Shown here: positions 40,301 to 61,901 of the stretch, one piece after another
Layout of the letters: each line of letters starts with the position of its first letter
Position numbering within the stretch: the stretch's first letter is position 1
Program-made: the position numbers and the translations under genes
Notes under the pieces: generated by a model
Seen by the model: the letters and a program-made list of their open reading frames with translations, nothing else
Databases searched by the model: none
Told to the model about the DNA's origin: nothing
Source of the DNA: Haplodiscus bocki
Taxonomy: Eukaryota
Reading direction: 5' to 3'
Length of the DNA: 64,000 bases
NCBI GenBank assembly: GCA_965655095.1
Contig: OZ296649.1
Location: forward strand, 128,960,001 to 129,024,000

Positions 40301-42846
40301 CCTGGAAAAAGATTCCTCAAAATTGAGCCATTTTTTTGTCGGAATCTACGGTTAACACCAAACAAATCTCTTTTTGACCATAATGCAGTGTATATGGTGA
40401 CACACCAATAGGCAGTTATTGACCGCAGACCAATCAAAACCGGTGAAAAGTATTGTTATAATCGATTCTGGGTGGAAAATGTTGGCTGGTAATACCCATG
40501 ACTGCATTGTCCCACACGAATTGATCCAATAACAGACAATGCATGAGACGTCCAAACGTTAGGGATGGCAGACCGAGTATGTTTGATAACGGCAGCTTCG
40601 GTGATGGGAGCTGACTTTGTGATTCTGAATGACTGTCGAACGATTGCGTCTCTGCAAAATCATTCCTCTATCAGTTTGATGTGTATGTTATGTTGTATAA
40701 ATGTAGTCAAAAAGACTGATCACATCGGAAACACAGCAGGGCACACTGAGAACAGTTTTCCAGAGTTCGGTGTGGAATTTTGCACTTTTCTCATAAACGT
40801 TCATTAGCCGATGTTTGGGAAATACCATGTTTGTGGACCGTTGCTTGTCACCCGTCAGTGTATCCCTTCTAGTTCCTGTTTCAGTTGCCAATTCGAGCGT
40901 TTATTAACTCAAACGATCATTCTTTTCCCCGAAGAAAAATGTTGTCAAAACGACGACGGTTTTGTCGCGGGTGTACTAAGTTATTGATTGTTTGCTATTG
41001 TTCTCGCTAGCTAATATTGCTGAGCGGCGTGTGCGGCCATATGTCTGCGTTATCGTGTAAGAAAGTCTCAAAAGCTTACACTGTTATTAGCTTTGTAAAT
41101 TTGCCTTGCTAAACCGCGCGAACAAATTTGCGTAAGTTCTACTAGCAAGGACTTGGTGAGCAAAGAAAGAGTATGAAATAAGAGATGAATTATTTGGTGA
41201 ATATACGGAAATGGCAGTCAACTTGTACAAAGTAAATGTGTACAAGATAAGATGAAATTTCCGATGGGTGAGAATATTAGGGGTGAAATTTGAGAAATCC
41301 AAATTAATAACTTTCAGTAGCCACCTTCTAAATTTTATAAAGCAACTTCTACAAATTCACAACCATTATAATATCAATTTTAACTGTAATATATCAATTT
41401 TGTATCACACGACTGTAATATAGAATAAGCAATTTTACCCGCGAAATCCAAAGAATTATTCTTCTATCCACTGTATATTTATTCCCTTGTATAATATTCG
41501 AAGATATCAAGAAATTTCCAACACAAAGATATCAACCAGAAAGTATCCAAAATTTTACAATATCCAAAATATTCGAAGAAAGAATTTATAATAGATTCGA
41601 AGTTTATCGCATGATAAATTCGAAGATAATAAATTCGAAGTTTAAGGCATCGCAGTTTTAATAAAGCATAATAAGTCAGATTTAACAATAAGTTTAGCTG
41701 AAATTTTTATTATTCAAATAAATGGAGTAAAACAGCAATTGACAATATTAAACTTACAAATCTTCCCAAAAATTATTGGAAATGTTTATCTTGAATAAGT
41801 TGAGGTAAGTTTTGGCAGTGCTTTTTATTTTTGGAGCTAGGACGAATGGTAACATTCGTTGTTTCTAGCTTGGCCTTTTTGCCCTTTTTGTTTTGTGTAG
41901 TTTTACGCTTATGTTGTATGTAAGTTTTAGCTAAGACTTCGGTAACATGCCATAAAGCAGTCAACCGAGTCAATTTTCTTAAGTTCCTCCTTTAGTCAAG
42001 TGTTGTCCACTGACGAGGCGCTTTCAAGTATTTCGCTTTTAGTTAGTAAGTTGTCTGTTTTAGCTTTTTGTCTACGACTATGGTAACGGGCATAGAGCAG
42101 TTAACCAAGTCAGGTTTCTTATGGTCCTCTTTTGGTCAAGTGTTAATCCACTGACGAGGCGCTTTCATGTATTTTCACTTTTAGTCTAACGACTCAGTAC
42201 TTGTTTAACATAGTAACTGGCCGAGAAATCTTAATCCCCTTTTCGTCCATACCGTGACATAGTCCTCGGATTTTGTTGGAGGGGTTTGAATTGTTTTAGC
42301 CTTTTAGATTTTATCTAAGACTCAGTGTTACTCGTGTCTACGGTTACTGAGCTGTTTTCTCTTATGTTCCCTTGTCTCAAACGCGGTAGTTTACTCGCGT
42401 AATTGTTGAGTGGGTTTATCTTTTACTTTTGCAATTTTCGAATAACCAGTAGTTTATTAACTGACTGGGTTTGGAGTGCAAAAATCTTCTAAGAATTTCT
42501 AGAGAGATTTACTCTGCTAGTAGATGAAACTAGAAACTCACGAATACCATCGTTGAAGTTGAGAAAGGGTGTTGATGTTCGGGTTCTCCAGGTCTTTGGT
42601 GGCTGTTCGAGTCTGTTAGAAGTTGCTCGCTAAGAAGCGGTAGGAAGTTAGAAGTTGAAGAGGAAGTCGAGAAGAGTTCCGCCTCGCGGATTTAAGCAGG
42701 TGAATTGTGGCAAGCGAATGAATACTATGGAAGTGCGCAGGGTATCTATACCCGGATGATTACGTGCCCTTTCAATTTTGGGCGAGAGCCAATAGGATCA
42801 TTCGACGAGCGAATCGAAAGCAGTTAAGTTGGCTCTGTATAATAGA

Positions 42847-43248
42847 AATTTAGCAAAGACAAGTTTAGGAGTTGTCTTAGAATAATTCTAGTTGAGTGGA
42901 TGGAGAGATTTGGCAAAGACAAGTTTAGGAATTGTCTTAGAATAATTCTAGTTGAGTGGATGAAGAGGTTTGGCAAAGACAAGTTTAGGAATTGTCTTAG
43001 AATAATTCTAGTTGAGTGGATGAAGAGATTTGGCAAAGACAAGTTTAGGAATTGTCTTAGAATAATTCTAGTTGAGTGGATGAAGAGATTTGGCAAAGAC
43101 AAGTTTAGGAATTGTCTTGGAATAATTCTAGTTGAGTGGATGAAGAGATTTGGCAAAGACAAGTTTAGGAATTGTCTTAGAATATTTCTAGTTGAGTGGA
43201 TGAAGAGATTTGGCAAAGACAAGTTTAGGAATTGTCTTAGAATAATTC
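42847..43248. repeat. 60-bp tandem array (~6.7 copies) in 3' LTR
   Basis: Same unit as 61500-61901. Confidence 0.95.
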
Positions 43249-43497
43249 AATGATGAGCATTTTAGTTTGAAATTAGGATGAGGGCGAAGAGAAAGAGAGT
43301 TTCGCCTCGGGGAAATAGGATAGTTAACTGAGGAGAGCGATTGAATAAAATGAGAATGTGCGGGGTATTTATACCCGGGTATGGCGCAATCGAGTGATCG
43401 TCCAATAGGAGAGCGCCTGAAGATAGCAATGTTTGCTTGGGAATCATTTGATCGGCGAGGAGAGGTGAGGAGTGGCGGTTGTTCAGAATTATTGAGG

Positions 43498-43682
43498 TTT
43501 TTGCGGCGAAGTCATGATTCGACTTTGAATATTTTCGCTGAAAGCGATTTTGCGGCTAAGTCAGAGTTTGACTTAGAATATTTTCGCTAATGAGCGTTTT
43601 GCGGCTAAGTCATAATTTGACTTAGAGTATTTTCGCTGAAAGCGAATTTGCGGCCAAGTCAGAATTTGACTTAGAATAATTT
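43498..43682. repeat. ~49-bp palindromic tandem repeat (~4 copies) in LTR (copy at ~62151-62335)
   Basis: Unit tttgcggctaagtcagaatttgacttagaatattttcgctgaaagcga, with internal inverted repeats ctaagtca/tgacttag and tcgct/agcga. Confidence 0.85.
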
Positions 43683-44426
43683 CGAAGATCAAGAAAGGCG
43701 AGAGAAGAGGAAGTTCAAAGTTTTTAAGAGTAGAGGCGAAGAGGAAAGAACAGAGCAAGTTGTTGACGGTAAGCGAGTGAGTGGATAAATGATCTCTTCG
43801 GTCGTGCCAAATGACTCTAAAATGGCATCATGCTGTTTTTTCATGCCACCAATAGGAAAACAGGGCATGATCGGCATGTCATACCTACTAGCCAATAGGC
43901 TGATAGTAGGATTTGGGCAAATTTGAAAATTTAATTTTTCTTCAATTTCGTCATCAATTTGTGCAATTCCACCCGAGTAATCTCATATCTCGCCCCTGTC
44001 GCCATAATAGCGGCAAATATTTAACCATAAACATAATCATCAGCTTTGTCGCCTCATAATCTGGTTTTCTGAGTTTTATCGTCTTGTATTTCCTGGGTCA
44101 CCAGGGTCTTTTATTTATTCGTAAATATCTGTGGCAACACCTCCGAAATTCCTGCTGGGTAAGTCAACTTTATTTCCTTCGTAATCTTAATTAGCTCGTA
44201 TTTCCTGTATAATTAACAAATATACAAACTGCACTGATAAATTTTGGTGTTTATCTGAAATCTGATAAATCTTGGGCTCGCCATTTTGGGCAAAAATCTC
44301 TCGAGGTTAGTTTCAACTTTTCTTTATTATAAAATCATAAAACTGCAATTTTTCATTAGGTTTAAGCGGTAGTCATAACGCGATAACTCACCCTGGTTAA
44401 AAGAGATGAAAAATGATTGGGGGGTT

Positions 44427-45749
44427 CTAGGGAAAGGGAGGAAATGGAAGGTTTTGCGCGGATGATTTCTGCACTTTTGGGTCAGAAAACGAGACTTCAA
44501 TATAACATGTATCATTTACAACATATCCATCAGTTTCGCTGAAAAGTTTAGAATGTGGGATGTATTTGTAGAAAGCAACAGCGAATGCATCATTCTTGAG
44601 AGAAGATGTTGGTCGTTTGAAGGGGGGTTCCTGCGAGGGTTGAATCGTTTGTGTCCAAGCATTAAGCGGGTCAAGCTGGTCACGGAGGCTGGAATGAATA
44701 GCCTTAGGAAATGGCCATCGCAAAAGACCGTCGTATTCTCCAGGAAAAAAGGCAAAGATGATGGTGGCAAATTTTCCTGCTGTCGCGTCAATCCCATAAG
44801 TGTGAAATCGGATAATGAAATTGTACCCATAGGGATGAGTTCGGAAAACAGGGCTCCAGTAACCGGTAGTCTTATCATCGAGAGGTTTAGATTGGCGATG
44901 TGCTTATTTTGCTGAATCGAAGATGAATCGTACCGATGGTATCCGCCATAGGATTGTATTGTTAGAGCCAGCTTCCAGTTGACGAATCTTGTCATACAGG
45001 AAGGAGTAGTTACTTTGTATGCTTGAAAGCATTGACTTCTGGCGTGAGAGATCATATTTTGTTTGCTTTTCCAGTGCGTTGAGTTTGGAAATGATGTCTG
45101 AGGATACTGCTGAATGAGGCATCTGAAGATCGGATGAGAATTGACAAGGAGTGAGAGAAGAAAGCAAATCAGATGATTTAGGAACATCAGAGTCGCCCAT
45201 TAGAATGATTTTGGAAGTGGATGCTAGTGAGAGCTCATGGGTCTCGGGCAGCGAGGGGTTCGTCACCGTACCTTCACTCGGTGGGTCAAGGGAAAATTGT
45301 TTTGGAGGATTTCCAGATTTCTGATTCATAAGTATGTTTTGGGTGAAGATGAGATCCTTCTGGAGTTGGAAGACTAGTAGCTGGAGGGTCTGGCGTTCGA
45401 GTCTTTCGGACTCTAGATCCTGATGAAGTTTTGCAACTGTCAGTTGTACCGAATGGAGATACTGTGCCTGTTTCAGGTGGGCTAATGGGAACTTCTGTAA
45501 TAAGGGGGTCGTTTGCTGGATAGAGGATTCGGAGTAAGCCTGGAGTTGGCTCAGCTGAGTACTTAACGATTGAATCTGTTCTTCAATCGGTTGAGGATGA
45601 GGGTTAGAAGTAAGTACCTTAGCAGCTTTTGTGGGAGAATCAGAAGGTCCGGATGAATCCATCTCCACAAGAGGGTGTTTTCGACTAAGAGAATAAGGTT
45701 TAGGGCGTTGCTGAGGACGAAAAGTTGGCGCAAACGGGTTCAGAGTCAT
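44427..45749 (-). pseudogene. PAM2 motif + coiled-coil + TRAF-C (MATH) domain protein, ~440 codons, one in-frame TAA at 44904-44906
   Basis: Reading through the stop gives ILWRIPS...SAK*AHRQ...YWSPVFRTHPYGYNFIIRF...PGEYDGLLRWPF...RDQ...FKRP...YVVNDTCYIEV, the canonical TRAF-C motifs. N-terminus MTLNPFAPTFRP. Confidence 0.85.
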
Positions 45750-46372
45750 CAAGGCAGGTGAGCTGTGATTGCTTTCGGGGGTACAACAATTCGTTGAGAT
45801 GGGAAAGAGTTGTTCTTAATCGTAAATTCTTGTCGGGTACCATCCCAATATATGATTTCCCATGAAGAGAATTCTGGTTTGAGTTTGTAGGGTAAATGAC
45901 GGTTAAATCGAGGCTTTTTAACAATTCTGGCCCGAGAGGCGAAATATTCGCGTCTATGTTGTTTGTAGAGAGCCACGGATTTGGCGTTATTCTGAGGGTT
46001 AGGGTGTCTAGGTCGTGATGCAACTGAGCGGATGTTTTCTCTCGAGATACCAGTGGGTCGAAGGGTTTCTCCTTCGGATTCGGTGTATACGGCAGAAGAA
46101 GGAGTTGCGTTATTGATGAGTACGTTAGTAGTTGGAGAAACCGGTGGCGAATTAACTATTGATCTCGTTTGAGGATTAGATTGCTCGTTGTGTAGAATAG
46201 GGTCCACAGTGGTTGAAGAAGGAGATGAAACAGGAGAGAGAAATGAGAAAACAGGAGTCGCACACTGATCCAGGCAAGTTGGGGTGAATGGCTCCAATTC
46301 TAGGTCTGGGTCTCCGAGAATAGATAGGATTTCGTTGCTGTCCAATAAAGGGAGAGGTTGAGAAGTGATTGG
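45749..46372 (-). CDS. Ser/Pro/Thr-rich, basic accessory ORF (~207 codons), probably entered by splicing
   Basis: The frame is open from the AG acceptor at 46373, with no ATG start. Basic segment RARIVKKPRFNR. Its TGA overlaps the next ATG (TGATG). Confidence 0.5.
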   Translation of the reverse strand, partial: PITSQPLPLLDSNEILSILGDPDLELEPFTPTCLDQCATPVFSFLSPVSSPSSTTVDPILHNEQSNPQTRSIVNSPPVSPTTNVLINNATPSSAVYTESEGETLRPTGISRENIRSVASRPRHPNPQNNAKSVALYKQHRREYFASRARIVKKPRFNRHLPYKLKPEFSSWEIIYWDGTRQEFTIKNNSFPSQRIVVPPKAITAHLP

Positions 46373-46400
46373 CTAAAAAATAAAAAGTGTTATTAAAATT

Positions 46401-48566
46401 TTAAACGGGTGATACAGGAAGGGTAGAAAAACCCAATGCAGCGGAGTTAACCACTGGGTAAAGATGCTCTTCCTTCTTCTTAGCCTCCTCTCGCATCTCA
46501 TAGAGCTCTTTATCTACTCTAGGATCGGCGTTCTTAGATGCGCTAGATGCAAAACGATTTGCTTGTGGGTTATACATTGAAGTCATAACCGATGTCAAGA
46601 AAAAATTGTATGAAGCGCTCAGGAGGGTCTTACCAAACCCTAGTGAAGCACCGGTCATTCTGTTGATTTCCATGTGCCTTATTATCATAACAACCAGATC
46701 GATTATAAGCTTTAGGAATAGAAAGACTGAGAAATAGATTCCACAGTGTTCGAGAATATAAGCAACTGGTCCAAAGGTATCCATAAAACGATCCTTGAAA
46801 TATTCTGGGGATATCATCTTGTCAACATAGAACTCTGTTCTTGGAGTGTAAGAGTGGAATCCGTCAGGACCTTCGTGAGCATTGGAGTAGATAATTAGGT
46901 TCTGCGAAAACTTCTTTAAACCTGTTCTGGAAGCGGCGTTAATCAGGATGTTATCCCAGAATCCACGAAGTTCGCTTCTAGTGTACATGCCTGCATCTTG
47001 TGATCCAGTGAGGGATTGTGCAGTCATCGGTGTAACTTGTTTAGGTCCAAAGACAGCAGGTTTATCTTGATGTACTATTCCAGGCGTGAGTGTATACCAA
47101 GAATCCTCTTGATCCATGTCAAGTTGAAAGAGATTCTTGATTCTATCGGAACAATTCTGTGTAACGGCATCAGGATAAGTTTGTCTCGTAATTGGATCAA
47201 CAAATCGAATTTCACCTTCATACAGGATGGGTATTCTATCATAGCACTGATTCATCGTATGAAGTGGTGATTGAACCATTGGACAGTGGTAAAGCCAAGC
47301 AAGACTGCCATCTGTTTCCAAGAACATTGATCTATTTCCTGTGAGCATGTAGCCTGCTAACCGGGGATTTTCAAGAGCTAACATTAGGTTAGTGAGGATT
47401 TGGGTACGTTCTTGTTCACACTGGTTTTGTAGTAGCTGTATTTCGGTCGCTTGAAGGAGTCTTGAACTTTGGAAGAACAGATAGTCTATCTTCGTTCCAA
47501 GGTGCATCTCATAATCCATATTCAAATAACTGTCAGGTTTATCTTCTTGTTTGAACTGTGCTCCTTCCAGCTGAGGGTTATGCACGTAAAGTTGACCAAA
47601 ATCGTTTTTCTCTCGGGGTCCTAAATACTGAAGTATTTTAGTCGCACCGTTCTTCTCACGGCCAAGATTTCTTCCAGTATCCATATCGAAAGCTTCACTG
47701 AGTCGAGCCATATAGAGCGAGTCGTAGTTTGTTGGATAAATTGGCGTGGGTTTTCCGCAATGCTTTTGTGGGTTGTTCTTTACTTCAAACACAAACTTGG
47801 ACGTAGAGTCTTTTCCACTAAGGACATAGTTTTTTCTGTCTTGCTTAACCATGTTGACATCTTCTGTTCGAAGAATGGATAGTACACAATTGTCCGGGTA
47901 ATCCCAAATATAGGCATATGGGTCGAGTGAAGTTGTTTCGCAGCCAAGTTCTTCTAGAGCACAAGGTAGGATCAGTCCCATGTCGGATAACACTTTTCCG
48001 TTTTCTATCGTGACTTTTAAAGTTGTTTTTTTTTGCATGTGGATAATAAAGGTATCCCGAGAAATCCAACCTCTCGTTTTGCAATGATTTCTGTTTGATC
48101 CCGTTGGATCACCAGAAACTTTAACCACAGGAGTCTTGGTATCCCATTCGGCGCCAATCCAATGGCCTTGTAAGTTGATACTAGCTCCTTTTGCAAGTGT
48201 TCGGCAGTGTTCTGGTGAGATAATCAAATCACTTGTTATTCCGGCAATAGTGTGGTCAATACTGCTGTGGTCGTTATGTCCACAGTGCCACTTCTCGCGT
48301 TGATGTTGAATGCGGCATTTGGTTGCGTTTAACTCTTTTCGAAAATGTTTGGTGTAAAGTGTAATTGTGGCTTTGCTGACTTCTAATTCTTCAGGCGTGA
48401 TGTGACACGGCCGTACTTGATTTATGGCATAGAGTGAATTTTCTGTCATCGAGCTGCAGTCAAAGTGAGACACTTTAAGAGCTGGGGCAACCTGATCTGC
48501 GTCTGGAACTAAATGAAACGTCACCTCGGTATAAACCACGAGGATTTGAAAGAAGAATAGCTTCAT
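46401..48566 (-). CDS. env: Envelope glycoprotein (~721 aa), chuvirus-G/herpes-gB-like class III fusogen
   Basis: N-terminal signal peptide, HFDC...PC...KCRI...WHCG Cys pattern, N-glycosylation sequons, helical core (LLQNQCEQER) and a C-terminal TM segment (IYFSVFLFLKLIIDLVVMII). Located after pol. Confidence 0.85.
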   Translation of the reverse strand: MKLFFFQILVVYTEVTFHLVPDADQVAPALKVSHFDCSSMTENSLYAINQVRPCHITPEELEVSKATITLYTKHFRKELNATKCRIQHQREKWHCGHNDHSSIDHTIAGITSDLIISPEHCRTLAKGASINLQGHWIGAEWDTKTPVVKVSGDPTGSNRNHCKTRGWISRDTFIIHMQKKTTLKVTIENGKVLSDMGLILPCALEELGCETTSLDPYAYIWDYPDNCVLSILRTEDVNMVKQDRKNYVLSGKDSTSKFVFEVKNNPQKHCGKPTPIYPTNYDSLYMARLSEAFDMDTGRNLGREKNGATKILQYLGPREKNDFGQLYVHNPQLEGAQFKQEDKPDSYLNMDYEMHLGTKIDYLFFQSSRLLQATEIQLLQNQCEQERTQILTNLMLALENPRLAGYMLTGNRSMFLETDGSLAWLYHCPMVQSPLHTMNQCYDRIPILYEGEIRFVDPITRQTYPDAVTQNCSDRIKNLFQLDMDQEDSWYTLTPGIVHQDKPAVFGPKQVTPMTAQSLTGSQDAGMYTRSELRGFWDNILINAASRTGLKKFSQNLIIYSNAHEGPDGFHSYTPRTEFYVDKMISPEYFKDRFMDTFGPVAYILEHCGIYFSVFLFLKLIIDLVVMIIRHMEINRMTGASLGFGKTLLSASYNFFLTSVMTSMYNPQANRFASSASKNADPRVDKELYEMREEAKKKEEHLYPVVNSAALGFSTLPVSPV

Positions 48567-48760
48567 CACTGTTTAGCCAGTGGAGGTTTCTCTCTATTTT
48601 TTTCAGAGGAATAGCTATTAATTTACAACTACTAAAAAGGAAAAAGGAAGCCGTATTATATTTTACCGGCTACTTCGTAGGCACTAACACGAAGCGGTAG
48701 CACTATATTTAAAGAGTCGCTACACTACTCTATTAAAACGACGTCGAAATTTTTATAAAG

Positions 48761-48889
48761 GGCGCTGGACTAGAACCAGTATCGCCAGAAGGGGACACTG
48801 GACTGCAACCAGCTCGTCAAAAGGAGACGTTGGACTAAGACCAATTCACCAGAATTGGACGCTGGACTAAAACCAGTTGGTCAAAAAGG
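48761..48889. repeat. Four ~32-bp imperfect repeats, each with a small stem-loop
   Basis: ctgg-actagaa-ccag, ctgg-actgcaa-ccag, ttgg-actaaga-ccaa, ctgg-actaaaa-ccag. Confidence 0.75.
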
Positions 48890-49059
48890 TGCCAAGTAAA
48901 TTTATCTAACCTCTACCATTTGGGTTGAGTGATTAAAGCAGATCCAAAATGGGCGTCTCCATTAGCCCTATAAATAAATATTGGTGCCCAGAGTTTACTT
49001 TTTTCCTCACTACTTGATCGTTTGACAATTGTTTTCTTCTTTCAGCCCAGAGTATGGGT

Positions 49060-49443
49060 TTAGTTGTCGTATAGATCAACGAGAGCGCGTAGGAGATTGA
49101 TCTGTGACACCTCGTGCAATGCCCCAAGGTTAGTGTCCATAAAATTCAGAAGATCGTCCAAGCTTTGATTTTCTCCTTTGTCCACTTTTTTGGAGATCTT
49201 CAGAGTCACAAAGAGGTTGGCGAACTCGTCTGTTTGGATAGTTATGGGGATTAATATTACAGCGAGTAGATTCTCAATCGCCTGAATTCTGACGTGAAGA
49301 GTGCTTTCGTCAGGAATCCAAAAGATGTTAGTTATTAAATGCTCTCCTTGTAGTGAAATAGGTGTCCACTTACAGCTAAGATTGACCCTTAAGAATTCTT
49401 GATTGTCAGCGGAGCGTCGCAATGAGGTTTCAACCAAATTCAT
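49060..49443 (-). CDS. Accessory ORF C, 127 aa (paralog of leader ORF u6)
   Basis: ATG directly after the ORF B stop. Motif similarity to 58415-58765. Confidence 0.7.
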   Translation of the reverse strand: MNLVETSLRRSADNQEFLRVNLSCKWTPISLQGEHLITNIFWIPDESTLHVRIQAIENLLAVILIPITIQTDEFANLFVTLKISKKVDKGENQSLDDLLNFMDTNLGALHEVSQINLLRALVDLYDN

Positions 49444-49665
49444 TCAAGATTTTCCGTTCTGGCTTTTGATGTGATTCGGAGGAGGGTTCATGAGGATTGC
49501 TTCAATGAAAGGGTAATGAGTTGATCCGGGTGAACAGAGGAAAGTCTTTATTTGATCGTTGTTAGTAGATTGGGTTGTCACCATGAAATCTTTTGTTCCG
49601 GTGATGAATGTTAGGCCCACTATGCATTGAAGTTGATTATCAATTCGTAGCAATATTAGTGTCAT
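49444..49665 (-). CDS. Accessory ORF B, 73 aa
   Basis: Flanked by TAG-ATG and TGA-ATG junctions. Paralog of A. Confidence 0.7.
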   Translation of the reverse strand: MTLILLRIDNQLQCIVGLTFITGTKDFMVTTQSTNNDQIKTFLCSPGSTHYPFIEAILMNPPPNHIKSQNGKS

Positions 49666-49887
49666 CTAAATTATGTTTTCTTTGTTTCCACAAACGATAT
49701 CACTGCGTATGTAGATATCTGCTGACAGCAAACTACGCAAGTGGTAGTAGTTTGGGGAGTCAGAGTAACACTTATATTCTTCCTCTAATCCTGTTTCTGT
49801 TTCCGTATGGATAAGGATAGTCGTTGCGTCAGATTTAATTTCGATTGTTTTCACTTTCTTCAATTGTCCGTCAATTTTCACATACAT
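49666..49887 (-). CDS. Accessory ORF A, 73 aa (paralog of ORF B)
   Basis: Stop TAG is directly followed by the ORF B ATG. Shares IDxQL...CxxxSxxYxx[LI]xx[LI]L with B. Confidence 0.7.
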   Translation of the reverse strand: MYVKIDGQLKKVKTIEIKSDATTILIHTETETGLEEEYKCYSDSPNYYHLRSLLSADIYIRSDIVCGNKENII

Positions 49888-51516: not shown

Positions 51517-54500
51517 TTAGAGTTTATAACCGTGGCGTGTTTCAGTGCGTAGCAATGATTCAGCGTCAGGATGATCTGGCTGAGATCGATTGTATTTGGG
51601 TTCTTTGTTTTGATACTTCCGGGTATTATGGCGAATCAATCGCTCAATAGAATTGAGTGGCTGACTAGGCGGTATAGGAGAAGTTATTAACTGTGATGTA
51701 GAAGGGTTATTTATGGGTGTCCGAGGTGAATGACTGAGTGGCTGAGGCGGTATTGTAGGAGAAAGAGTTGGAGGTGAGTTAACACCAGAATCATCACTCG
51801 TATTACTGATTCTTTTTGGTGGGAGAACAGTTGGTGTTGAAGATAAAGGCACTATAGGGAAAGGAATTGAATCGCCTTTAGTGGTTTCTTTTGGGTTTTT
51901 CAACTGTTGTACCCGTCGTTCCATGAATCGTTCGTAGAAGTTATCTCTATGTGCATCTGAAGGGACATACTCCTCAATCATTGGAGGCAAAGATTCTTCT
52001 TTAGGATAGTACTCGACTAAATGGTTTCGATGGACTGTTTTGAGCATTGTAGGGTCTTTGTCGTCTTGGATCTGGTAAGTGGTGTTTGTAATCCGTTTTG
52101 TCACTGTGAAAGTTCCTAATCTGCGTTGTTGAAGTTTCTGACTTTTGGATAAATCCTGTCGATGATTTTCATACAAGACCTTCTGGCCCATGTCAAGGTG
52201 ATGTCCTAGTTTGGATCTGTTGCGATAGGCATGTGATTGTGCTGTCTGCTCACGGCGTCTCTCAAAGGTGGCAGAATAGATCCGTTTACAGTCTCGTTCT
52301 CGTTCCAAAAAGGTTTGAGAAAGCTGTGGTTTCAGAAGGTTATCTAGTAGTTGATTCTTCAAATTGTTTTCGCTATGCGAGTGTGAAGGTAGGTCCTTGC
52401 AAAACTCCGAACAACAGAGTTTATGTTTATTCCTGCAGAGACCAAGTTTTATTGACATTGGTATCTGTGGCTTTGTTCCAAAGACTATTTCGTAGGGGGT
52501 CTTTCCAGTGGTGTAGTTCACACTGGTGTTATGAGCAAAGGCAAATTTGGGTGCTAAGGAAGACCAATTAGTCCCAACATCATTCAAAAAATTTCGCCAA
52601 TACCGAGCGATGTGTTGGTTTTGCGTTTCTACTTTGCCATTTGTCCATGCTGTTCGTGGGCGTAAAGTGATTCCAAGTTCTTTTGCCCAGTTGATAAAAT
52701 CAGAGTTGATGAAGGCGGTGCCTCGATCGTGTATGATAGATTGAGGGATCCCAATGGAATGTATCCATTTTTCAACGGCGGCAATTGTGGCTTGAGCGCT
52801 GGTGTTGGTAACTGGATACACCATTAAGAAACGAGAGAAAGCATCAATCACTAGTAGGCAATGAAGATTGCGGTTGCTTGGCGGATGGAGTGGTCCCTTA
52901 TGATCGATGTGCACCGTACGGAAAGGTATGGCATCATTCTGCCATTCCTCTAAAGGAACTTCGTTCCTGTGTTTTGGTTTGGGTTTATTATTCTGACAAA
53001 TGATACAATCTGCCGTTAGAGCACAAATCCAATCGAACATCCCAGGCCAATAATAGAATCTTTTAGCATTGGCGTAGGTCTTAGAAGCTCCCATATGTCC
53101 ACCCATTTCATTGTAATGTCCTAGGCGAAAACAAGCGAGAAATAGTGATAGGGGAAGGCAAATTCTAAGATTCTCTTCGTCCAATTTGTCCGATGGTTCG
53201 TTATAACAAAGTAATTGTCCTTCAGTCTCAATGAGAAGCCTATCGAGTTCTTGACAATATCGTAAAAAGCCCTTCGATTGCTGAATTTTAGGTGATTTAG
53301 CATCAGGAGAGATTTGTTTGCGGACCCAAGAGCGTACAATTCCAAGGACAGGATCCTTGATTTGTTCGGCTAGAATAGTAGAGACGTCAAGATCTACACT
53401 TTTAGCAACTTCGTCAAGTTTTGCTATCAGAGCTTTTGTGTCCAAGTGAGGAGCTTCGGTAATAGTGAGTGGCTTTTTCGCTAATGAAGCGTCGATTTTA
53501 CCTAACACAGAATCGTGAGCTGTTTTTGCTTTACACAACCGATAGTGATCGACATTAGTGTCTACTCTGAAAATGTGGTCGTCTTCGTCCTCTTCCTTGT
53601 TATCTTCTATTTGATCAGTTGGTAAGGTAACTACGTTCGAAGCTCTGCATTCTTCTTCTTCAGTGTTTGAGGAGCTGATAGAGCTGTAAATTGAGTCAGA
53701 GTTTTCACGTAAAATTGGTGAATAGGATAGGGGGTAGCACAAGCGGCGGGATAGGTTAATAGTCTTGCCCATACGAAAACAGTCTGCAGCAGATTGGGCT
53801 AACAGAGTCGGGAATTCGTTGCTGATACTATTCAGTGTATAGTTCTCTCCGTCATTTTGCAATCTAAGGATCTTCTCATCATTTCCTTGTTGCCGATGTA
53901 TTGGGTAGAAGTCAATACAAGTGTCGTGTGGATTGTCCTCGTGTTGAATTTTGTAAATTACTGGGTTACCATGTTCGTCAAAAAACTCAATATCCTGGGG
54001 TATCTTTTTATGTTGTAATTGATGTTTTTGGTATCCTTCTAGGGTTACATTCCTGCTGAGAATATCAGGGAAAGCAAGGTTTGATCCGGGGGTCCAAATA
54101 ATTTTCAAATTCTGAAATTTTGTGATGATAACTTGATAGCGGAAAAATCGATGGGAAAGTTGTCCTTTGCGCCCCCATAAGTGCAGAATTGGTTTGTGGT
54201 CACAATAAAGATAGATCGGGAACGGAGAGCCAATAATGTAGTGTTCATAGGTTTGTAATGCAGAGACAATTCCACAAAGCTCTCTGTGAAGTGTGGACAT
54301 CTTTTGTTCAGCTTTATCGAAGACTCGAGAGTTAAAAGATATAACACGCTTTCCTTCCGGGAACTGCTGGATTAAAATACAGCCAGTACCAACATTAGAG
54401 CAGTCAACATGAATATGGAAAGGGTAATCCGCGGAAGGAACAGCAAGTATAGTGTCTTCACTGATTCTGTCTTTGATTGACTGAAAAAGTTTTTCGTGTT

Positions 54501-57056
54501 CATCTGTCCAGTGGAAGGATGTTGAGTCTTTAATCAAATCATAGAAGGGTTGACTGTCTACATGGAGATTTTTTATATAGCAACTGTAAAACCCGAGGCA
54601 ACCCAATACTTTCATCACATCAAGTTTGCATTCGGGAGATTTTAAGTTCTTTAAGTCTTTTACTCGTTTTGCAATCGGTTGTATTCCTTCTGGAGAAATG
54701 ACATGTCCAAGGAATTTCACTTTCTTTAAGAAGAAAAATGTCTTATCGGGAGCAGCCTTGAGACCAGCCTTGCGGAGGAGAGTATGGTATTCATTTATAA
54801 TAGTGAACATCTCGTTTTTATTTTGTGATTGCATGATCGTATCATCGATGTACGTTATGGCTTGTTTGTTCTTGATGAGAGGATCAAAATGAATTGTCAT
54901 CAGTCGGCTAAAGAAATTCGGGAGTCCGCATAGACCATAGAACCCTCGTGTGTATGTATATTGTCGTCCACCAAGGATAAAACTTGTAAGATTCTGGGTT
55001 TCGGGGCTCAAAGGCACTTGATGGTAGGCGCAAGACAGATCGCTCACAGAGAAGACTTTACCATTTACTCTCGTCATAATCATTTGTACGGGTTCCAGTG
55101 GCCAAGAATAGTTGGTGAGATCAGTTACTGAGTTGAGGTTCCGGGCATCGATGACGAGTTTAACGTAATCAGTTTTAGGCATCAAGATGATGGGGTTAAC
55201 AAAAAGTGATCCCATTTCGTCGTCGTCACCCATTTCTCGGATGATGTCTGCATCTTTAATTTGTGTTAAGAGTTTTTCCAGCTTTTCTTTCAAGTGTAAA
55301 GGTACTTTGCTGGGTCTTTGTCTCTTTAATTCTGCCTTGGGCTTCAGCGTTACATGGAACTTTTGACGTGTCTTGCCCACATCAAACTTGTGTCGAGAAT
55401 ATACGTCTTGTGAATCAAGTAGCATATCAATGAGGAGAGTCATTTCTTCATCAGTGACGTCAGAATACTGGAAATCGAATTCCTTGATATAATCCACAAG
55501 TTCTTTTGGTTGATATTGCAAGTAATGTTCAATAAGTCTGTTAGTGAGGTCTTTTCGCGTAATATAGGAAACTGTTCGTCACATGGAGGCTGACAAGATT
55601 TCGAATCTTTAGTGAAATCCGTCTCTAAATCTTTTTCATCGAGATAAAATTCTTCACTATATCGTTCTATTTCATCCTCTGCATAGAACTCAGGATCGCC
55701 TTCCGATGACATTGCATGAACACCGTGACTTTCCAGGGTGTATACCACAACATGGATGTCGGAATAAGCAAAAACATCACGCAATAGTTTCACCACCTCC
55801 TGCCAGTTCATTTGATCCAATCCGCAACCTATTTTCGGGATAGCGATTGTGGACACTCCGTGCATTGCTGCGTGAGACTTCATTGCCTCGAGAGTTGTAA
55901 AGAGAGTAGACATTTCCGGTTTGTCAAAAAACCGTTGTTTCGTCACGAGATTGTAAATATAGCGTCTGCTAGTAGAATCCCAAAAAGGGAACACTTGTCC
56001 GATCAAGAGTTTTGCTTTTTTACAGGTTGAACGAAGGCCAGGAATTTTATGGGAAAGGAAATCAGCGAATCCTTTACTCATTTTAGCATCAGCTGAGATG
56101 CAATGCCCGATTGAATTGGGTTGTTGAATAATCGAATTGTCATTTCCATACACAATCTGTAGGAACTCGTCGCCAGACTGTGCAGGGATTGTAGAATGCA
56201 AAAGGAAACAGTCGTTATAGCGTTCGTCTGTTGCAATGATGGCATTGGTTAAATCATAGGGACTCCGGATCTGATTTTTAGGTTCTTCTCGGTCCATTAC
56301 ATCGAGTGAAGAGAATCCAATTCTTCCTCTAGGAAGCGTGATTTGGTGGTTTTTGTTGTTTTCCATTAAGATAGGAAGATTTTTTTCAGATCGGGTACAT
56401 AACGTATTAACAAAGGATAAGCCAGTTGATACCGCCTGACGATTAGGTTGGAAAGTAGAGCCTGGTGGAAAATGGATTTGAGAGTCTTCGGGTGAATATT
56501 TGCAACAGCGGGCACTTTTGGCATCAATATACATTGTATAAGGTAGTCGAATGGTCAAGATCTGGGATAAGTGGGGATAGACTTTATTTTGATGAAAGCA
56601 ACCATAACAAAGTGAATTTGGAGGATTTTTTAGCTCTATTCCGGGCAGATCAAAATGGATTCCAGATACTTGTTTTTGGCAAAAGTCCATTCCAAGGAGG
56701 TTTTGCGTTTTCATTTCGGTTACCCAAACTGTTAAAGGAAACACGAACTGTCCATCTGGGTCGTAGCAGAAGGTTATACTTGCATAGCCAACCATAGGAA
56801 CTGTCTGTCCCGAATAAGTTTTAGTAAGTTTTGTACTTTTTTGTAATGTGATTGGGTGTTGCAGTTGGCAGATTTCCCAAAAAGTTCGATAAATGAATAT
56901 TGAGCAAGAGGCTCCTGTGTCTAACATAAACTCGATTTCCAAGCCACTATCTTTTTGCGTGTCTCCGGTGGCAAAGTAAAAGATATTGAAACTGAGTCTT
57001 AAGTTCCTAGATTTGTCTGAATTGGAATTCGGAGACCTTAGCAGTTTAACGGACAA
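51517..57056 (-). CDS. pol: Pol polyprotein: aspartic protease - macrodomain - RT - RNase H - integrase; one frameshift near 55553
   Basis: LDTGAS (protease), YIDD (RT), HVDCS/ELCG/CDHK (RNase H), HX6H..CX2C and IDHKGP..HDRG..KVE (integrase). ORFs 55440-57056 and 51517-55521 overlap in different frames around an A-run (GAAAAG). Confidence 0.93.
55735..56165 (-). other. TARG1/OARD1 (Poa1p-like) macrodomain within Pol
   Basis: SIGHCISADAKMSKGFA...RYIYNLVTKQRFFDKP...LEAMKSH...IAIPKIGCGLDQMNW...VVVYTL closely follows the OARD1 motif series. Confidence 0.9.
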
Positions 57057-58414
57057 AGTTCTGATAGTTCATTAATGCAATCATCAGTGGTGGTGAAACG
57101 AACCACGTTCGTTGATGTTTGATTGTTACTTTGCGGAAATTTCTGTTCGTAAGAAGAGGAACTAGTGATTGGGTTAGCATCTGATCTTCTAAATGGCGAA
57201 TTTCTAGGCTGAAAAGGCTGAGGTCGACGGAAAAAATTACCTTGAGAAAAGTCCCGTCTTTGTCCAGAGGGTGAACGAGAAAAATTTTCATTATTTCGCC
57301 AAGTTCCACTTTGACTATTGAAATTCCCATTATTCGATCGATTTCCATTGTTCCTATTAGGGAATTGGTCTGATCGCCGGTCCAATAATCTTCCACGGTT
57401 CTGGTTCTCCTGCCCATAATAGGAATTAGGTCGGTAAGAAGAGTTTTGATTGTTATTCCATTGTCCGGATCCATGGCTTGGTCCTCTTTTCTTATTATAA
57501 TCTTGGGTAAATGTAACTCTTTTTTCTGCAGTTCTTTCATTTTCGGTCTTTTTCAACTCTTCGTCTCGTATTTTCTTCCTGCACCAGCTGGGAGTGTGTC
57601 CATTCGTGCGGCAGTAATTACAAAATCGAGTAGCGTTTTGTCGTCCCTTTTGGTTTGGGTCCACGGGTTTGGAAGTGCCTTCCACAGCATTAACTCGATG
57701 TTCTTGCAGTTCAGTCCTTAGGTTTTTCATCTCTTGGCCCAATGAGGCCAGTTCGGCTTTAGTTTGTTCTTCATCATTTAAAAAATTCGAAGATACTTGA
57801 AAGGACACATCTTTTTGAATTATATGGGTTGAAAATTCATTCCAGGTGGCATTTTGGTGCTCCATTAGGTATTCTTGCGCTTTACGTTGAAGATATCCAG
57901 GTCTAAGTCCTCTCAGACTATAGTCCATGTATTGCTGTCTTCGTTGCCGGGCTTGGGCATCCCGTTCTGCATTTTGTTGAGCGCGGGCGATTCCGTTCAT
58001 ATCATCAGGCCAACCTTTGTCTACTGTCTTTTTGATTCTGTGAAGGAAATTACGAATTTCTTCTCCGTCTCTTCGAACACAGTGCTCTACTTCCAGTCGG
58101 TGGCGAAATTTGTTTCGTCCATCAGAGAATCGACTAATAAAGTTAGTTCGAATATCTTCCCATGGCGTAGCAGCTTCGATGGTGCTTCCATACCATTCGG
58201 CAGCGGGGCCTCTGAGTAGAGAGGAAAAAAGAGCTTTTTTGCGGAAATTGTAGTTGGCAAGGGCATCAGGGTTGGCAGGGGCATCTCCGAGAGCAAAGTT
58301 AATCTTTCGCTCTATGAGTTGTATGAAGGATTCAGCGTCTTGATCGGGGTCAGTTCCGGAAAATTTGTCTAGGGCTAGATCAGGGTAGGCTAGATGAGTT
58401 GCAGCGATAATCTT
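57038..58414 (-). CDS. gag: Gag (capsid + CCHC zinc knuckle); no ATG at the expected start
   Basis: The frame is open 138 codons upstream of the tracked ATG (KIIAATHLAYPDLALDKFSGTDPDQDAESFI...LRGPAAEWY...WEDIRTNFISRF), a typical retrotransposon gag N-terminus. Zinc knuckle CNYCRTNGHTPSWC. Confidence 0.9.
   Translation of the reverse strand, partial: KIIAATHLAYPDLALDKFSGTDPDQDAESFIQLIERKINFALGDAPANPDALANYNFRKKALFSSLLRGPAAEWYGSTIEAATPWEDIRTNFISRFSDGRNKFRHRLEVEHCVRRDGEEIRNFLHRIKKTVDKGWPDDMNGIARAQQNAERDAQARQRRQQYMDYSLRGLRPGYLQRKAQEYLMEHQNATWNEFSTHIIQKDVSFQVSSNFLNDEEQTKAELASLGQEMKNLRTELQEHRVNAVEGTSKPVDPNQKGRQNATRFCNYCRTNGHTPSWCRKKIRDEELKKTENERTAEKRVTFTQDYNKKRGPSHGSGQWNNNQNSSYRPNSYYGQENQNRGRLLDRRSDQFPNRNNGNRSNNGNFNSQSGTWRNNENFSRSPSGQRRDFSQGNFFRRPQPFQPRNSPFRRSDANPITSSSSYEQKFPQSNNQTSTNVVRFTTTDDCINELSELCPLNC
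57044..57050 (-). promoter_or_regulatory. Putative -1 ribosomal frameshift site G_UUA_AAC (gag-pol)
   Basis: CCG TTA AAC TGC TAA at the gag end; the -1 frame is the protease ORF. Downstream gtct...gaatt/aattc...agac can form a stem. Confidence 0.7.
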
Positions 58415-58765
58415 TTACTCAAACTTGAGATACAGATATTCTATCAATTCTTCCAAAATTCCAAGTTGAAAAGAATTTAAGTGGGGCTCAGGAAAATCTT
58501 CGTATTGATTAAGTGCGTCAGATAACGATTTAAGCAAGGGGTGATGGTCGTCTAGGTCTATCTGTTTCGAGAGATCTGAATTTCCTTCTGGATGTACTGT
58601 GACACGAATCCAGAAATCGTAATTGAATGTCCACTTCAAACAAGTGATTATCACCGTCAGGGTTTCGTCTTTGGATGATATGATCCAGGGGCAATTTAGT
58701 GGAACTTGTTTGCACTCGATTTCTGGTATTTTGTCCAATGGGGAATTGTCCAGTTTTTGTGGCAT
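58415..58765 (-). CDS. Leader ORF u6, 116-aa accessory protein of unknown function (paralog of ORF C)
   Basis: ORF track entry. Shares VxLxCxW...ITx[LI]xW...[IV]R[VI] and a C-terminal amphipathic helix with 49060-49443. In frame with gag across one TAA. Confidence 0.7.
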   Translation of the reverse strand: MPQKLDNSPLDKIPEIECKQVPLNCPWIISSKDETLTVIITCLKWTFNYDFWIRVTVHPEGNSDLSKQIDLDDHHPLLKSLSDALNQYEDFPEPHLNSFQLGILEELIEYLYLKFE

Positions 58766-59612: not shown

Positions 59613-61499
59613 GTTTGTCGCGGGTGTACTAAGTTATTGATTGTTTGCTATTGTTCTCGCTAGCTAATATTGCTGAGCGGCGTGTGCGGCCATATGTCTG
59701 CGTTATCGTGTAAGAAAGTCTCAAAAGCTTACACTGTTATTAGCTTTGTAAATTTGCCTTGCTAAACCGCGCGAACAAATTTGCGTAAGTTCTACTAGCA
59801 AGGACTTGGTGAGCAAAGAAAGAGTATGAAATAAGAGATGAATTATTTGGTGAATATACGGAAATGGCAGTCAACTTGTACAAAGTAAATATGTACAAGA
59901 TAAGATGAAATTTCCGATGGGTGAGAATATTAGGGGTGAAATTTGAGAAATCCAAATTAATAACTTTCAGTAGCCACCTTCTAAATTTTATAAAGCAACT
60001 TCTACAAATTCACAACCATTATAATATCAATTTTAACTGTAATATATCAATTTTGTATCACACGACTGTAATATAGAATAAGCAATTTTACCCGCGAAAT
60101 CCAAAGAATTATTCTTCTATCCACTGTATATTTATTCCCTTGTATAATATTCGAAGATATCAAGAAATTTCCAACACAAAGATATCAACCAGAAAGTATC
60201 CAAAATTTTACAATATCCAAAATATTCGAAGAAAGAATTTATAATAGATTCGAAGTTTATCGCATGATAAATTCGAAGATAATAAATTCGAAGTTTAAGG
60301 CATCGCAGTTTTAATAAAGCATAATAAGTCAGATTTAACAATAAGTTTAGCTGAAATTTTTATTATTCAAATAAATGGAGTAAAACAGCAATTGACAATA
60401 TTAAACTTACAAATCTTCCCAAAAATTATTGGAAATGTTTATCTTGAATAAGTTGAGGTAAGTTTTGGCAGTGCTTTTTATTTTTGGAGCTAGGACGAAT
60501 GGTAACATTCGTTGTTTCTAGCTTGGCCTTTTTGCCCTTTTTGTTTTGTGTAGTTTTACGCTTATGTTGTATGTAAGTTTTAGCTAAGACTTCGGTAACA
60601 TGCCATAAAGCAGTCAACCGAGTCAATTTTCTTAAGTTCCTCCTTTAGTCAAGTGTTGTCCACTGACGAGGCGCTTTCAAGTATTTCGCTTTTAGTTAGT
60701 AAGTTGTCTGTTTTAGCTTTTTGTCTACGACTATGGTAACGGGCATAGAGCAGTTAACCAAGTCAGGTTTCTTATGGTCCTCTTTTGGTCAAGTGTTAAT
60801 CCACTGACGAGGCGCTTTCATGTATTTTCACTTTTAGTCTAACGACTCAGTACTTGTTTAACATAGTAACTGGCCGAGAAATCTTAATCCCCTTTTCGTC
60901 CATACCGTGACATAGTCCTCGGATTTTGTTGGAGGGGTTTGAATTGTTTTAGCCTTTTAGATTTTATCTAAGACTCAGTGTTACTCGTGTCTACGGTTAC
61001 TGAGCTGTTTTCTCTTATGTTCCCTTGTCTCAAACGCGGTAGTTTACTCGCGTAATTGTTGAGTGGGTTTATCTTTTACTTTTGCAATTTTCGAATAACC
61101 AGTAGTTTATTAACTGACTGGGTTTGGAGTGCAAAAATCTTCTAAGAATTTCTAGAGAGATTTACTCTGCTAGTAGATGAAACTAGAAACTCACGAATAC
61201 CATCGTTGAAGTTGAGAAAGGGTGTTGATGTTCGGGTTCTCCAGGTCTTTGGTGGCTGTTCGAGTCTGTTAGAAGTTGCTCGCTAAGAAGCGGTAGGAAG
61301 TTAGAAGTTGAAGAGGAAGTCGAGAAGAGTTCCGCCTCGCGGATTTAAGCAGGTGAATTGTGGCAAGCGAATGAATACTATGGAAGTGCGCAGGGTATCT
61401 ATACCCGGATGATTACGTGCCCTTTCAATTTTGGGCGAGAGCCAATAGGATCATTCGACGAGCGAATCGAAAGCAGGTAAGTTGGCTCTGTATAATAGA

Positions 61500-61901
61500 A
61501 ATTTAGCAGAGACAAGTTTGGGAATTGTCTTGGAATAATTCTAGTTGAGTGGATGAAGAGGTTTGGCAAAGACAAGTTTAGGAATTGTCTTAGAATAATT
61601 CTATTTGAGTGGATGAAGAGGTTTGGCAAAGACAAGTTTAGGAATTGTCTTAGAATAATTCTAGTTGAGTGGATGAAGAGATTTGGCAAAGACAAGTTTA
61701 GGAATTGTCTTAGAATAATTCTAGTTGAGTGGATGAAGAGATTTGGCAAAGACAAGTTTAGGAATTGTCTTAGAATAATTCTAGTTGAGTGGATGAAGAG
61801 ATTTGGCAAAGACAAATTTAGGAATTGTCTTAGAATAATTCTAGTTGAGTGGATGAAGAGATTTGGCAAAGACAAGTTTAGGAATTGTCTTAGAATAATT
61901 C
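61500..61901. repeat. 60-bp tandem array (~6.7 copies) in 5' LTR
   Basis: Unit tttggcaaagacaagtttaggaattgtcttagaataattctagttgagtggatgaagaga repeats in phase with the 60-nt lines. Confidence 0.95.

What the first reader, a model, noticed from the sequence alone, without database searches (positions are those of the whole stretch)
45714..45749. PAM2 (PABP-interacting) motif at the start of the post-env protein: a possible trans-factor for reinitiation
MTLNPFAPTFRP fits the PAM2 consensus xxLNxxAxxFxP, which binds the MLLE domain of poly(A)-binding protein. eRF3, Paip1/2 and ataxin-2 use the same site (established). Inference: an element built on stop-start junctions that also encodes a potential eRF3 competitor for PABP may tune termination/reinitiation or NMD escape on its own mRNAs, conceptually like CaMV TAV. 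The ORF itself starts at a TGATG overlap.
Basis: inference. Interest (0 to 1): 0.75.

Follow-up and report, generated by a model that had tools for sequence, protein, structure and literature searches.

The report
Retrotransposon TRAF protein with PABP hook
A large family of virus-like jumping genes carries a TRAF signalling gene, likely captured from the host, whose product starts with a conserved short motif predicted to grip poly(A)-binding protein, so it likely acts as a decoy that holds host defence-signalling partners on messenger RNA; the copy in this window is broken.

Summary
The motif is real. It opens ORF T of a young 22-kb env-bearing gypsy element. PAM2 anchors L3/N4/A7/F10/P12 are invariant in 36 of 36 intact ORFs from three families with 51% MATH identity, while positions 2/6/9/11 vary. 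24 of 30 copies chosen without the motif carry all five anchors. There are 1,247 genomic matches against 0 for the control. This copy has a premature stop at codon 282. ORF T follows not env but ORF X, which is joined to a Met-Val-Glu mini-exon by a predicted env-skipping splice; one genomic copy has exactly that join. The stop-start overlap is conserved. Best reading: a PABP-anchored, RING-less TRAF decoy or adaptor (0.4). A TAV-like reinitiation factor is unsupported. Binding is untested and host PABP was not located. Viral PAM2 mimics and TRAF capture by planarian Burro elements are each published; I found no report of the fusion. Earlier scan notes cover other genes of such elements, not this one.

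The parts
45714..45749 (-). PAM2-type motif, residues 1-12 of ORF T
44427..45749 (-). ORF T, 440 codons: PAM2, disordered linker, two coiled coils, TRAF/MATH domain; broken in this copy
44904..44906 (-). premature in-frame TAA (codon 282), seen in 1 of 24 close copies where the spot could be located (this copy)
45327..45587 (-). predicted coiled coil 1 (residues 55-141), homologous to the host TRAF-like proteins
44982..45107 (-). predicted coiled coil 2 (residues 215-256, TRAF-N position)
44481..44963 (-). TRAF-C/MATH domain (about residues 263-423)
   Evidence: PF21355 E 2.8e-18; PDB TRAF4 E 1.4e-13; Foldseek TRAF1 E 2.5e-13 on an intact copy's model
45747..45751 (-). TGATG stop-start overlap between ORF X and ORF T
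45749..46372 (-). ORF X second exon, 207 codons: Pro/Ser/Thr-rich region, then a conserved basic helix and a small beta-barrel of weak SH3/Tudor/KOW likeness
46373..48910 (-). predicted 2,538-nt GT-AG intron that contains env
48911..48919 (-). ATG GTA GAG mini-exon (Met-Val-Glu) before the donor, predicted start of ORF X
46401..48566 (-). env, 721 aa, mononegavirus-type fusion glycoprotein
   Evidence: PF24664 E 2.3e-36
49060..49887 (-). three small ORFs (73, 73, 127 aa) joined by TAG|ATG and TGA|ATG
51517..58765 (-). gag, protease, macrodomain, RT, RNase H, integrase (broken into several frames in this copy)
40963..44385 (-). 3' LTR
59616..63038 (-). 5' LTR; 16 differences from the 3' LTR in 3,425 compared bases; 4-bp target-site duplication GTTT flanks the element

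Best explanation
[quoted passage not shown] Steps. (1) Shown: domain layout, motif conservation, descent from the host TRAF-like family, loss of the host intron. (2) Strongly inferred: the RNA that makes it skips env by splicing, ORF X is translated from the Met-Val-Glu mini-exon, and ribosomes restart at the overlapping ATG to make ORF T. (3) Inferred from TRAF and PAM2 structures: it trimerises through coiled coil and MATH and presents three PAM2 tails, which raises avidity for arrays of PABP. (4) Hypothesis: its MATH groove or coiled coils capture receptors, adaptors or host TRAF subunits, and without a RING it cannot signal, so the partners are held on mRNPs or granules and defence or death signalling against the element is blunted.
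For: Anchors L3, N4, A7, F10, P12 invariant in 36 of 36 intact ORFs; positions 2, 6, 9, 11 differ by family; between families motif identity 63-72% against 10-24% in residues 13-50 and 51% in MATH; pN/pS 0.22-0.32 against 0.61-1.06 in the linker. 24 of 30 motif-independent loci have all five anchors. 13 of the 15 best genome-wide Pfam PAM2 loci are ORF T starts, and 7 of them reach the curated cut-off. The motif sits in a low-confidence, unstructured tail. The element proteins form one clade (100/99) inside the host family; the host genes have an intron in MATH that the element lacks and no PAM2 pattern in the roughly 24 kb read upstream. The host has an MLLE domain and a canonical non-element PAM2. 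Viral PAM2 peptides, one at the extreme N-terminus of a nucleoprotein, bind PABP1 with PAIP1-like affinity (PMC10132805, passages). The same element carries a macrodomain, and planarian Burro elements carry MATH, BIR and BCL2-like domains (PMC6431247, passages): a pattern of captured defence-related domains.
Against: No expression data and no partner for the MATH domain. The window's own peptide gets no Pfam PAM2 hit and lacks the preferred Glu9. The only MLLE found in the genome belongs to UBR5, so the target could be the ligase. The residues recalled as lining the TRAF peptide groove differ between element families (alignment), which fits poorly with one fixed host target. The host genes' upstream exons were not found, so 'RING replaced by PAM2' is inferred from canonical TRAF layout. 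The precedent that TRAF2 is sequestered in stress granules is recalled, not read.
Confidence: 0.4

Rival explanations
1. RNA-fate factor for the element's own transcripts. ORF T is brought to element RNA, for example through its translationally coupled neighbour ORF X (basic helix plus small beta-barrel), and recruits PABP there to protect a polycistronic, spliced, long-3'-UTR RNA from NMD or deadenylation.
For: The RNA has several stops upstream of a predicted exon junction and a 3.4-kb LTR downstream. Tethered PAM2 peptides suppress NMD (PMC5118804, abstract). The X/T overlap is kept in 20 of 20 fetched copies that have ORF T. ORF X has an Arg/Lys-rich conserved domain.
Against: ORF T has no detected RNA-binding domain, and the published effect needs tethering at a given position. 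The fold match for X is weak (best Z 4.3). 3 of 30 loci keep ORF X but have lost ORF T's N-terminal part. It does not explain why a TRAF domain in particular was captured.
Confidence: 0.25
2. Ubiquitin-ligase adaptor. The PAM2 recruits the HECT ligase UBR5 through its MLLE domain in place of the missing RING, and proteins bound by the MATH domain are ubiquitinated and degraded.
For: The one MLLE found in this genome is in the UBR5 gene. UBR5 MLLE binds PAM2 peptides and targets Paip2 for degradation (PMC11326040, passages). A ligase hook in place of a RING is a coherent swap.
Against: The same review says UBR5 MLLE binds PAM2 more weakly than PABP MLLE and that UBR5 works in the nucleus. PABP is far more abundant (established).
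Confidence: 0.17
3. One reading: a TAV-like trans-activator that competes with eRF3 for PABP and so raises termination-reinitiation at the element's stop-start junctions.
For: Conserved stop-start junctions at X/T and between the two 73-aa ORFs. eRF3 uses the same MLLE site (PMC2854688, passages). No conserved TURBS-like structure was found upstream of the X/T junction, which leaves room for a trans factor.
Against: TAV acts through eIF3, 60S proteins, RISP and TOR; the two reinitiation reviews searched have no occurrence of the term PABP. ORF T is a TRAF protein with no TAV likeness found. It is the last cistron and would need reinitiation for its own synthesis. About two thirds of the protein, under purifying selection, would be unexplained.
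Confidence: 0.08
4. The 12 residues are conserved for another reason (RNA signal at the junction, another binding partner) and only resemble PAM2.
For: No Pfam hit for this copy's peptide; no Glu9; P5 and P8 are also largely conserved.
Against: Third positions of the motif codons vary to near saturation between families (pS 0.60-1.01), and no conserved RNA pairing was found. The six positions invariant across four families include all five PAM2 anchors (p about 0.013; post hoc).
Confidence: 0.07

Closest known systems
Viral PAM2 mimics: nucleoproteins of HCoV-229E and Berne virus, henipavirus P/V/C (PMC10132805, passages)
   Same: A PAM2-type motif in a disordered region of a viral protein, in one case at the extreme N-terminus; Leu and Phe anchors; the one peptide printed in the passage also lacks Glu9.
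   Different: Those are RNA-virus nucleocapsid or polymerase-cofactor proteins with tested binding. This is a retroelement accessory protein built on a captured TRAF domain, with binding untested.
Planarian Burro/GYPSM1 giant gypsy elements (PMC6431247, passages)
   Same: Large gypsy element with a mononegavirus-like env and a MATH_TRAF_C domain, in one species as an accessory ORF.
   Different: Burro has a ~5,000-aa polyprotein with env between gag and pol plus BIR, ankyrin and BCL2-like domains. Here env is a separate ORF after pol, and the TRAF ORF is last, behind a predicted splice and a stop-start, and begins with PAM2. No PAM2 is mentioned in the Burro passages read.
Cellular TRAF proteins (TRAF1-6; PDB 5e1t, 4m4e, 7ypc) and two host TRAF-like genes at G000:C5
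   Same: Coiled coil followed by a MATH domain; about 30% identity to the host-type protein over ~320 residues.
   Different: No RING or zinc fingers (RING-less like TRAF1, recalled), no intron, N-terminal PAM2 absent from the host-type proteins seen.
Cellular PAM2 proteins (eRF3, Paip1/2, ataxin-2, Tob, PAN3, LARP4B; PMC2854688, PMC7356810, passages)
   Same: LNxxAxxFxP anchors in an unstructured region.
   Different: Position 9 is Thr/Ala/Val/Ile, not Glu; the motif starts at the initiator Met; no known PAM2 protein with a TRAF domain turned up (search: 0 papers).
CaMV TAV; TURBS-type and SART1 termination-reinitiation (PMC5972666, PMC10275272, passages)
   Same: Tightly spaced ORFs with TGATG/TAATG/ATGA overlaps.
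   Different: No TAV likeness found; no conserved TURBS pairing; the UGGGA words upstream are forced by Trp-Glu and Trp-Asp codons.
Cer1 CERV (PMC10309623, abstract and passages)
   Same: A gypsy-element accessory protein made from a spliced mRNA that controls the fate of element RNA; an analogy for ORF X.
   Different: Sequence relation not tested; CERV is a nuclear export factor; 0 occurrences of PAM2 in that paper.

Membership tests
PAM2 motif | Anchor residues L3, N4, A7, F10, P12 | tested here: met
   Window peptide; 36 of 36 intact ORFs; 24 of 30 motif-independent loci; consensus from PMC7356810 and PMC2854688 passages
PAM2 motif | Glu at position 9 (preferred, not obligatory) | tested here: not met
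   T, A, V, I instead. The best-scoring host PAM2 has Val there and a validated viral ligand lacks it, so this marks a variant, not exclusion
PAM2 motif | Pfam PF07145 score over the 20-bit cut-off | tested here: inconclusive
   No hit for the window peptide and 15.7 bits for one family C peptide; up to 22.4 bits for other family C copies and 18.2-18.3 for family B; the profile has four positions upstream of where this protein starts
PAM2 motif | Lies in a disordered region outside folded domains | tested here: met
   No secondary structure before residue 55; pLDDT under 50 for residues 1-4 and 8-52
PAM2 motif | Binds an MLLE domain | not testable with these tools
   Needs ITC, NMR or pull-down
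PAM2 motif | Host encodes an MLLE domain | tested here: met
   UBR5 MLLE at G000:C4:53459528; the PABP gene itself was not located
TRAF proteins | TRAF-C/MATH domain | tested here: met
TRAF proteins | Coiled coil before MATH | tested here: met
   helices 55-141 and 215-256, homologous to host-type proteins
TRAF proteins | N-terminal RING and zinc fingers (canonical TRAF2-6) | tested here: not met
   None in ORF T by sequence or Pfam; it is TRAF-like, not a canonical TRAF ligase
TRAF proteins | Trimer formation | not tested
   The complex predictor was not available
Env-bearing Ty3/gypsy element | LTRs with target-site duplication; PR-RT-RH-IN order; env ORF | tested here: met
   no RT tree was built
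Burro/GYPSM1 | Single giant polyprotein with env between gag and pol and BIR/ankyrin/BCL2-like domains | tested here: not met
   Separate env after pol; none of those domains among 14 ORFs scanned
CaMV TAV-type transactivator | Sequence or fold likeness to TAV | tested here: inconclusive
   No such Pfam or PDB hit listed; all top matches are TRAF domains
CaMV TAV-type transactivator | Raises reinitiation in trans; binds eIF3, 60S proteins, TOR | not testable with these tools
   Needs reporters and pull-downs
TURBS-dependent reinitiation | Stop and start within 20 nt | tested here: met
   Overlap in 20 of 20 fetched copies with ORF T
TURBS-dependent reinitiation | UGGGA motif set in a conserved structure upstream of the junction | tested here: inconclusive
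   Two TGGGA words 113 and 98 nt upstream coincide with Trp-Glu and Trp-Asp codons; consensus fold of 16 sequences is -1.2 kcal/mol with 5 pairs

The most novel reading that the evidence does not exclude
An animal retroelement has built a two-protein, translationally coupled device from a captured host gene. ORF X binds the element's RNA, and the PAM2-TRAF trimer loads PABP onto it. This lets a polycistronic, stop-start RNA escape NMD and be translated to its last cistron, while the TRAF head decoys host defence signalling. It would be a trans-acting RNA-fate factor for polycistronic expression in animals.
Probability: 0.2. Interest if true: 0.85.

Novelty: new variant of a known kind. Interest (0 to 1): 0.6.

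Why it matters
PABP hijack by PAM2 mimicry is shown for a few RNA viruses, and TRAF capture is noted for planarian giant elements. My ten literature searches found no PAM2 in a retroelement protein and no PAM2-TRAF fusion. Here the combination is kept by selection in at least four diverged families with over a thousand copies, so it probably serves the element. It links TRAF signalling to poly(A) mRNP biology in one small protein, suggests that this host uses a TRAF pathway against retroelements, and gives a natural, testable case of stop-start translation behind an env-skipping splice in an animal LTR element.

Tried and rejected
Host PABP gene: not located by PF00658, TIGR01628 (best hit was SF3B4-like; 30 of its loci read), three peptide patterns or the UBR5 MLLE exon. 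No complex prediction was obtained, neither PAM2-MLLE (no contiguous host MLLE in hand) nor the trimer (tool not available). RNA evidence: no RNA holder listed; the four runs laid were contigs not on record as RNA and showed no joint at the predicted intron among those listed (81 joints not shown). TURBS-like structure: none conserved. ORF X identity: no Pfam family, no PDB sequence hit, no Atlas hit, weak SH3/Tudor/KOW-like fold matches only. Viral contigs: no relative of ORF T. Metagenome scan for an MLLE stand-in gave four non-PABP proteins. Three KITGMF pattern hits were a satellite repeat. Eight further host-type TRAF hits are decayed and closer to the host protein than to ORF T. Stop-codon readthrough at codon 282 was rejected: the stop is private to this copy. 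The identity of the top host PAM2 exon as eRF3 is recalled likeness and was not confirmed in 20 kb downstream. The eLife survey of env-bearing gypsy elements has 0 occurrences of TRAF or MATH in its main text. No supplements were read; those of PMC10132805 and the original Burro paper could hold retroelement PAM2 cases.

Full report
1. Observation. The 36 bases 45749-45714 on the minus strand encode MTLNPFAPTFRP. With the start Met as position 1, the residues L3, N4, A7, F10 and P12 are the PAM2 anchors described in PMC7356810 and PMC2854688 (passages). The ATG overlaps the TGA of the upstream frame. The window holds 1 six-frame match to LNxxAxxFxP against a mean of 0.03 in 100 second-order Markov simulations.

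2. Setting. The motif lies in a 22,076-bp LTR element (40963-63038, minus strand) with a 4-bp target-site duplication and LTRs that differ at 16 of 3,425 compared bases, so the insertion is young. The order is gag, protease, macrodomain, RT, RNase H, integrase, small ORFs, env (PF24664), ORF X, ORF T. This copy is broken in several genes.

3. What the protein is. The same frame continues into a TRAF/MATH domain: PF21355 E 2.8e-18, TRAF4 E 1.4e-13. Among the 30 closest copies, this one included, 18 have an open frame of 431-440 codons, and the stop at codon 282 is in 1 of the 24 where the spot could be located. A model of one natural unbroken copy (mean pLDDT 63) shows an unstructured tail to residue 54, helices 55-141 and 215-256, and the MATH sandwich; its top Foldseek matches are TRAF1-6 domains. 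There is no RING or zinc finger.

4. Conservation. A back-translated pattern for M-x-L-N-P-x-A-P-x-F-x-P has 1,247 matches in the genome and the reversed control 0. That search forces the motif, so I also picked loci by a motif in ORF X (1,071 matches; the first 30 by position were read). Of these 30, 24 have all five anchors, 2 have four, 1 is decayed, and 3 are derivatives that have lost the front of ORF T. A second set picked by a host-type protein gave 10 element copies among 17 loci read, 9 with the full motif and 1 with Leu3 changed; the other 7 are decayed host-type copies. In 36 intact ORFs from three families (20, 11, 5; many chosen by similarity or by the motif, and broken copies dropped) the five anchors never vary, while positions 2, 6, 9 and 11 differ by family. 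Between families, identity is 63-72% in residues 2-12, 10-24% in residues 13-50 and 51% in MATH; pN/pS is 0.22-0.32, 0.61-1.06 and 0.32-0.39; synonymous sites in the motif are near saturation. A fourth family (MMLNPLAQIFSP) changes position 8 as well. A genome-wide Pfam PAM2 scan (150 of 259 candidates scored) puts ORF T starts at 13 of the 15 best loci, up to 22.4 bits with a cut-off of 20. Against this, the window's own peptide gets no Pfam hit and position 9 is never Glu. In the protein collection 68 of 120 listed homologues have the strict motif near the start; most of the rest are truncated gene calls or single changes. These unnamed records may come from the same or a close organism and are not independent.

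5. Origin. A profile search of 1.84 billion representatives (2,534 hits at E 0.001; best 150 listed) found non-element TRAF-like proteins that share both coiled coils. Two such genes lie in the own genome at C5:9.06 Mb and C5:50.4 Mb. Their MATH domain is split by an intron (GT-AG ends read for the first) that the element lacks, and their first matching exon follows an acceptor-like sequence. In a tree of 29 rows the 15 element-type rows form one clade (100/99) inside this host-type group (midpoint root, no clade test run). No PAM2 pattern occurs in the 30 kb read around either host gene, about 24 kb of it upstream, nor in the seven host-type proteins seen, which may be partial. The upstream host exons were not found. 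Capture from an mRNA, and gain of PAM2 in place of the RING/zinc-finger region, are therefore inferences.

6. How it is made. ORF X has no ATG but follows a pyrimidine tract and AG. Upstream of env lies ATG GTN GAR followed by GT. This donor is in 18 of 22 long loci read and the acceptor in 19 of 22, across all four families; the misses are two derivatives, one copy with an insertion (donor only), and one copy that has neither. That last copy has both LTRs and lacks exactly the 2,538 nt between donor and acceptor, so ORF X begins Met-Val-Glu-Pro in frame: what a reinserted spliced RNA would look like. It is the only exact match to that join in the genome. The X/T junction is TGATG, TAATG or ATGA in 20 of 20 loci with ORF T, 113 nt after the same Trp codon in three families. 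The two 73-aa ORFs are joined stop-to-start as TAG|ATG or TAA|ATG in families A, B and C. Coupled termination-reinitiation is the simplest reading (PMC10275272, PMC5972666, passages). No conserved TURBS-like fold was found.

7. Partner. The genome has one MLLE found by Pfam, in UBR5, and a non-element exon with a canonical PAM2 (24.3 bits). Binding to either MLLE is untested.

8. Mechanism. A TRAF-C trimer would carry three PAM2 tails (inferred from TRAF structures). I rank: decoy or adaptor that holds TRAF partners on PABP-coated mRNPs 0.40; protection of the element's own RNA together with ORF X 0.25; UBR5 substrate adaptor 0.17; TAV-like reinitiation factor 0.08; not a PAM2 0.07. I put the chance that the motif binds some MLLE domain at about 0.85. 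The decoy reading uses both halves of the protein and fits the element's other captured domain, the macrodomain noted in earlier scan notes (e1-9262650, e1-9514690; AI notes, only the domain's presence checked here). The stress-granule sequestration of TRAF2 and the RING-less state of TRAF1 are recalled. TAV works through eIF3, 60S proteins, RISP and TOR, and ORF T would need reinitiation for its own synthesis.

9. Known and new. Viral PAM2 mimicry is shown for three RNA-virus groups (PMC10132805, passages). MATH_TRAF_C is noted in planarian Burro/GYPSM1 elements (PMC6431247, passages). LINE-1 is reported to contact PABPC through another surface (bioRxiv 2025.10.09.680815, passage). Tethered PAM2 peptides suppress NMD (PMC5118804, abstract). 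Ten searches (listings only unless named above) showed no PAM2 in a retroelement protein and no PAM2-TRAF fusion. The library lacks most subscription papers, and no supplements were read. The scan's own notes hold nothing on this motif or protein.

10. Verdict. Observation confirmed; interpretation partly supported. A new variant of known kinds: a PAM2 mimic fused to a captured TRAF domain in a retroelement. Interest 0.6.

Noticed in passing
window 58415-58417 (minus); also L213, L215: An in-frame TAA separates a 116-aa ORF from the gag frame, in the same GAG TAA AA context in three of four copies read (the fourth is shifted by an indel). It may be a readthrough site or a splice donor (GTAAAA).
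   Followed up: partly
window 48751-48757 (minus): A TATAAAA box followed by a palindromic word and a conserved block lies inside the env-containing intron in families A, B and C: possible internal promoter for env.
   Followed up: no
window about 55780-55970 (minus): Macrodomain between protease and RT (PF01661, 21.5 bits, just under the cut-off), as in earlier scan notes.
   Followed up: no
L062, L065, L077, L119, L120: Short derivative elements keep the LTRs and ORF X (with its own ATG), lack env and the front of ORF T, show no pol in the stretch read, and carry another ~330-aa ORF with a hydrophobic start.
   Followed up: partly
L104:2739-3449 (G000:C4, UBR5): The host UBR5 has its own PAM2-like word (LNVNAAPYQP) just before its MLLE domain.
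   Followed up: no
L209:740-856, L211:3001-3105, L208:594-722: Metagenome proteins carry an MLLE-like stretch in non-PABP, non-UBR5 settings; possibly large-virus or protist genes.
   Followed up: no
L129: An unrelated 800-aa ORF with a signal-peptide-like start sits where the front of env and the donor should be.
   Followed up: no
L183/L184 (G000:C3), L187/L188 (G000:C6), L182, L185, L186, L189: Decayed copies of the host-type TRAF-like gene, two pairs in inverted orientation.
   Followed up: partly
window 15015-22731: Three ~1.9-kb copies of one repeat, two direct and one inverted, 93-98% alike.
   Followed up: no
window 42844-43248, 43490-43684 and the matching places in the 5' LTR: 60-bp and 49-bp tandem arrays inside the 3.4-kb LTR.
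   Followed up: no
P0201/P0277 (unnamed ENA/Logan proteins): A TRAF-like protein of the same family with a Pro/Ser/Thr-rich N-terminus and no PAM2; possibly another captured copy in another organism.
   Followed up: no
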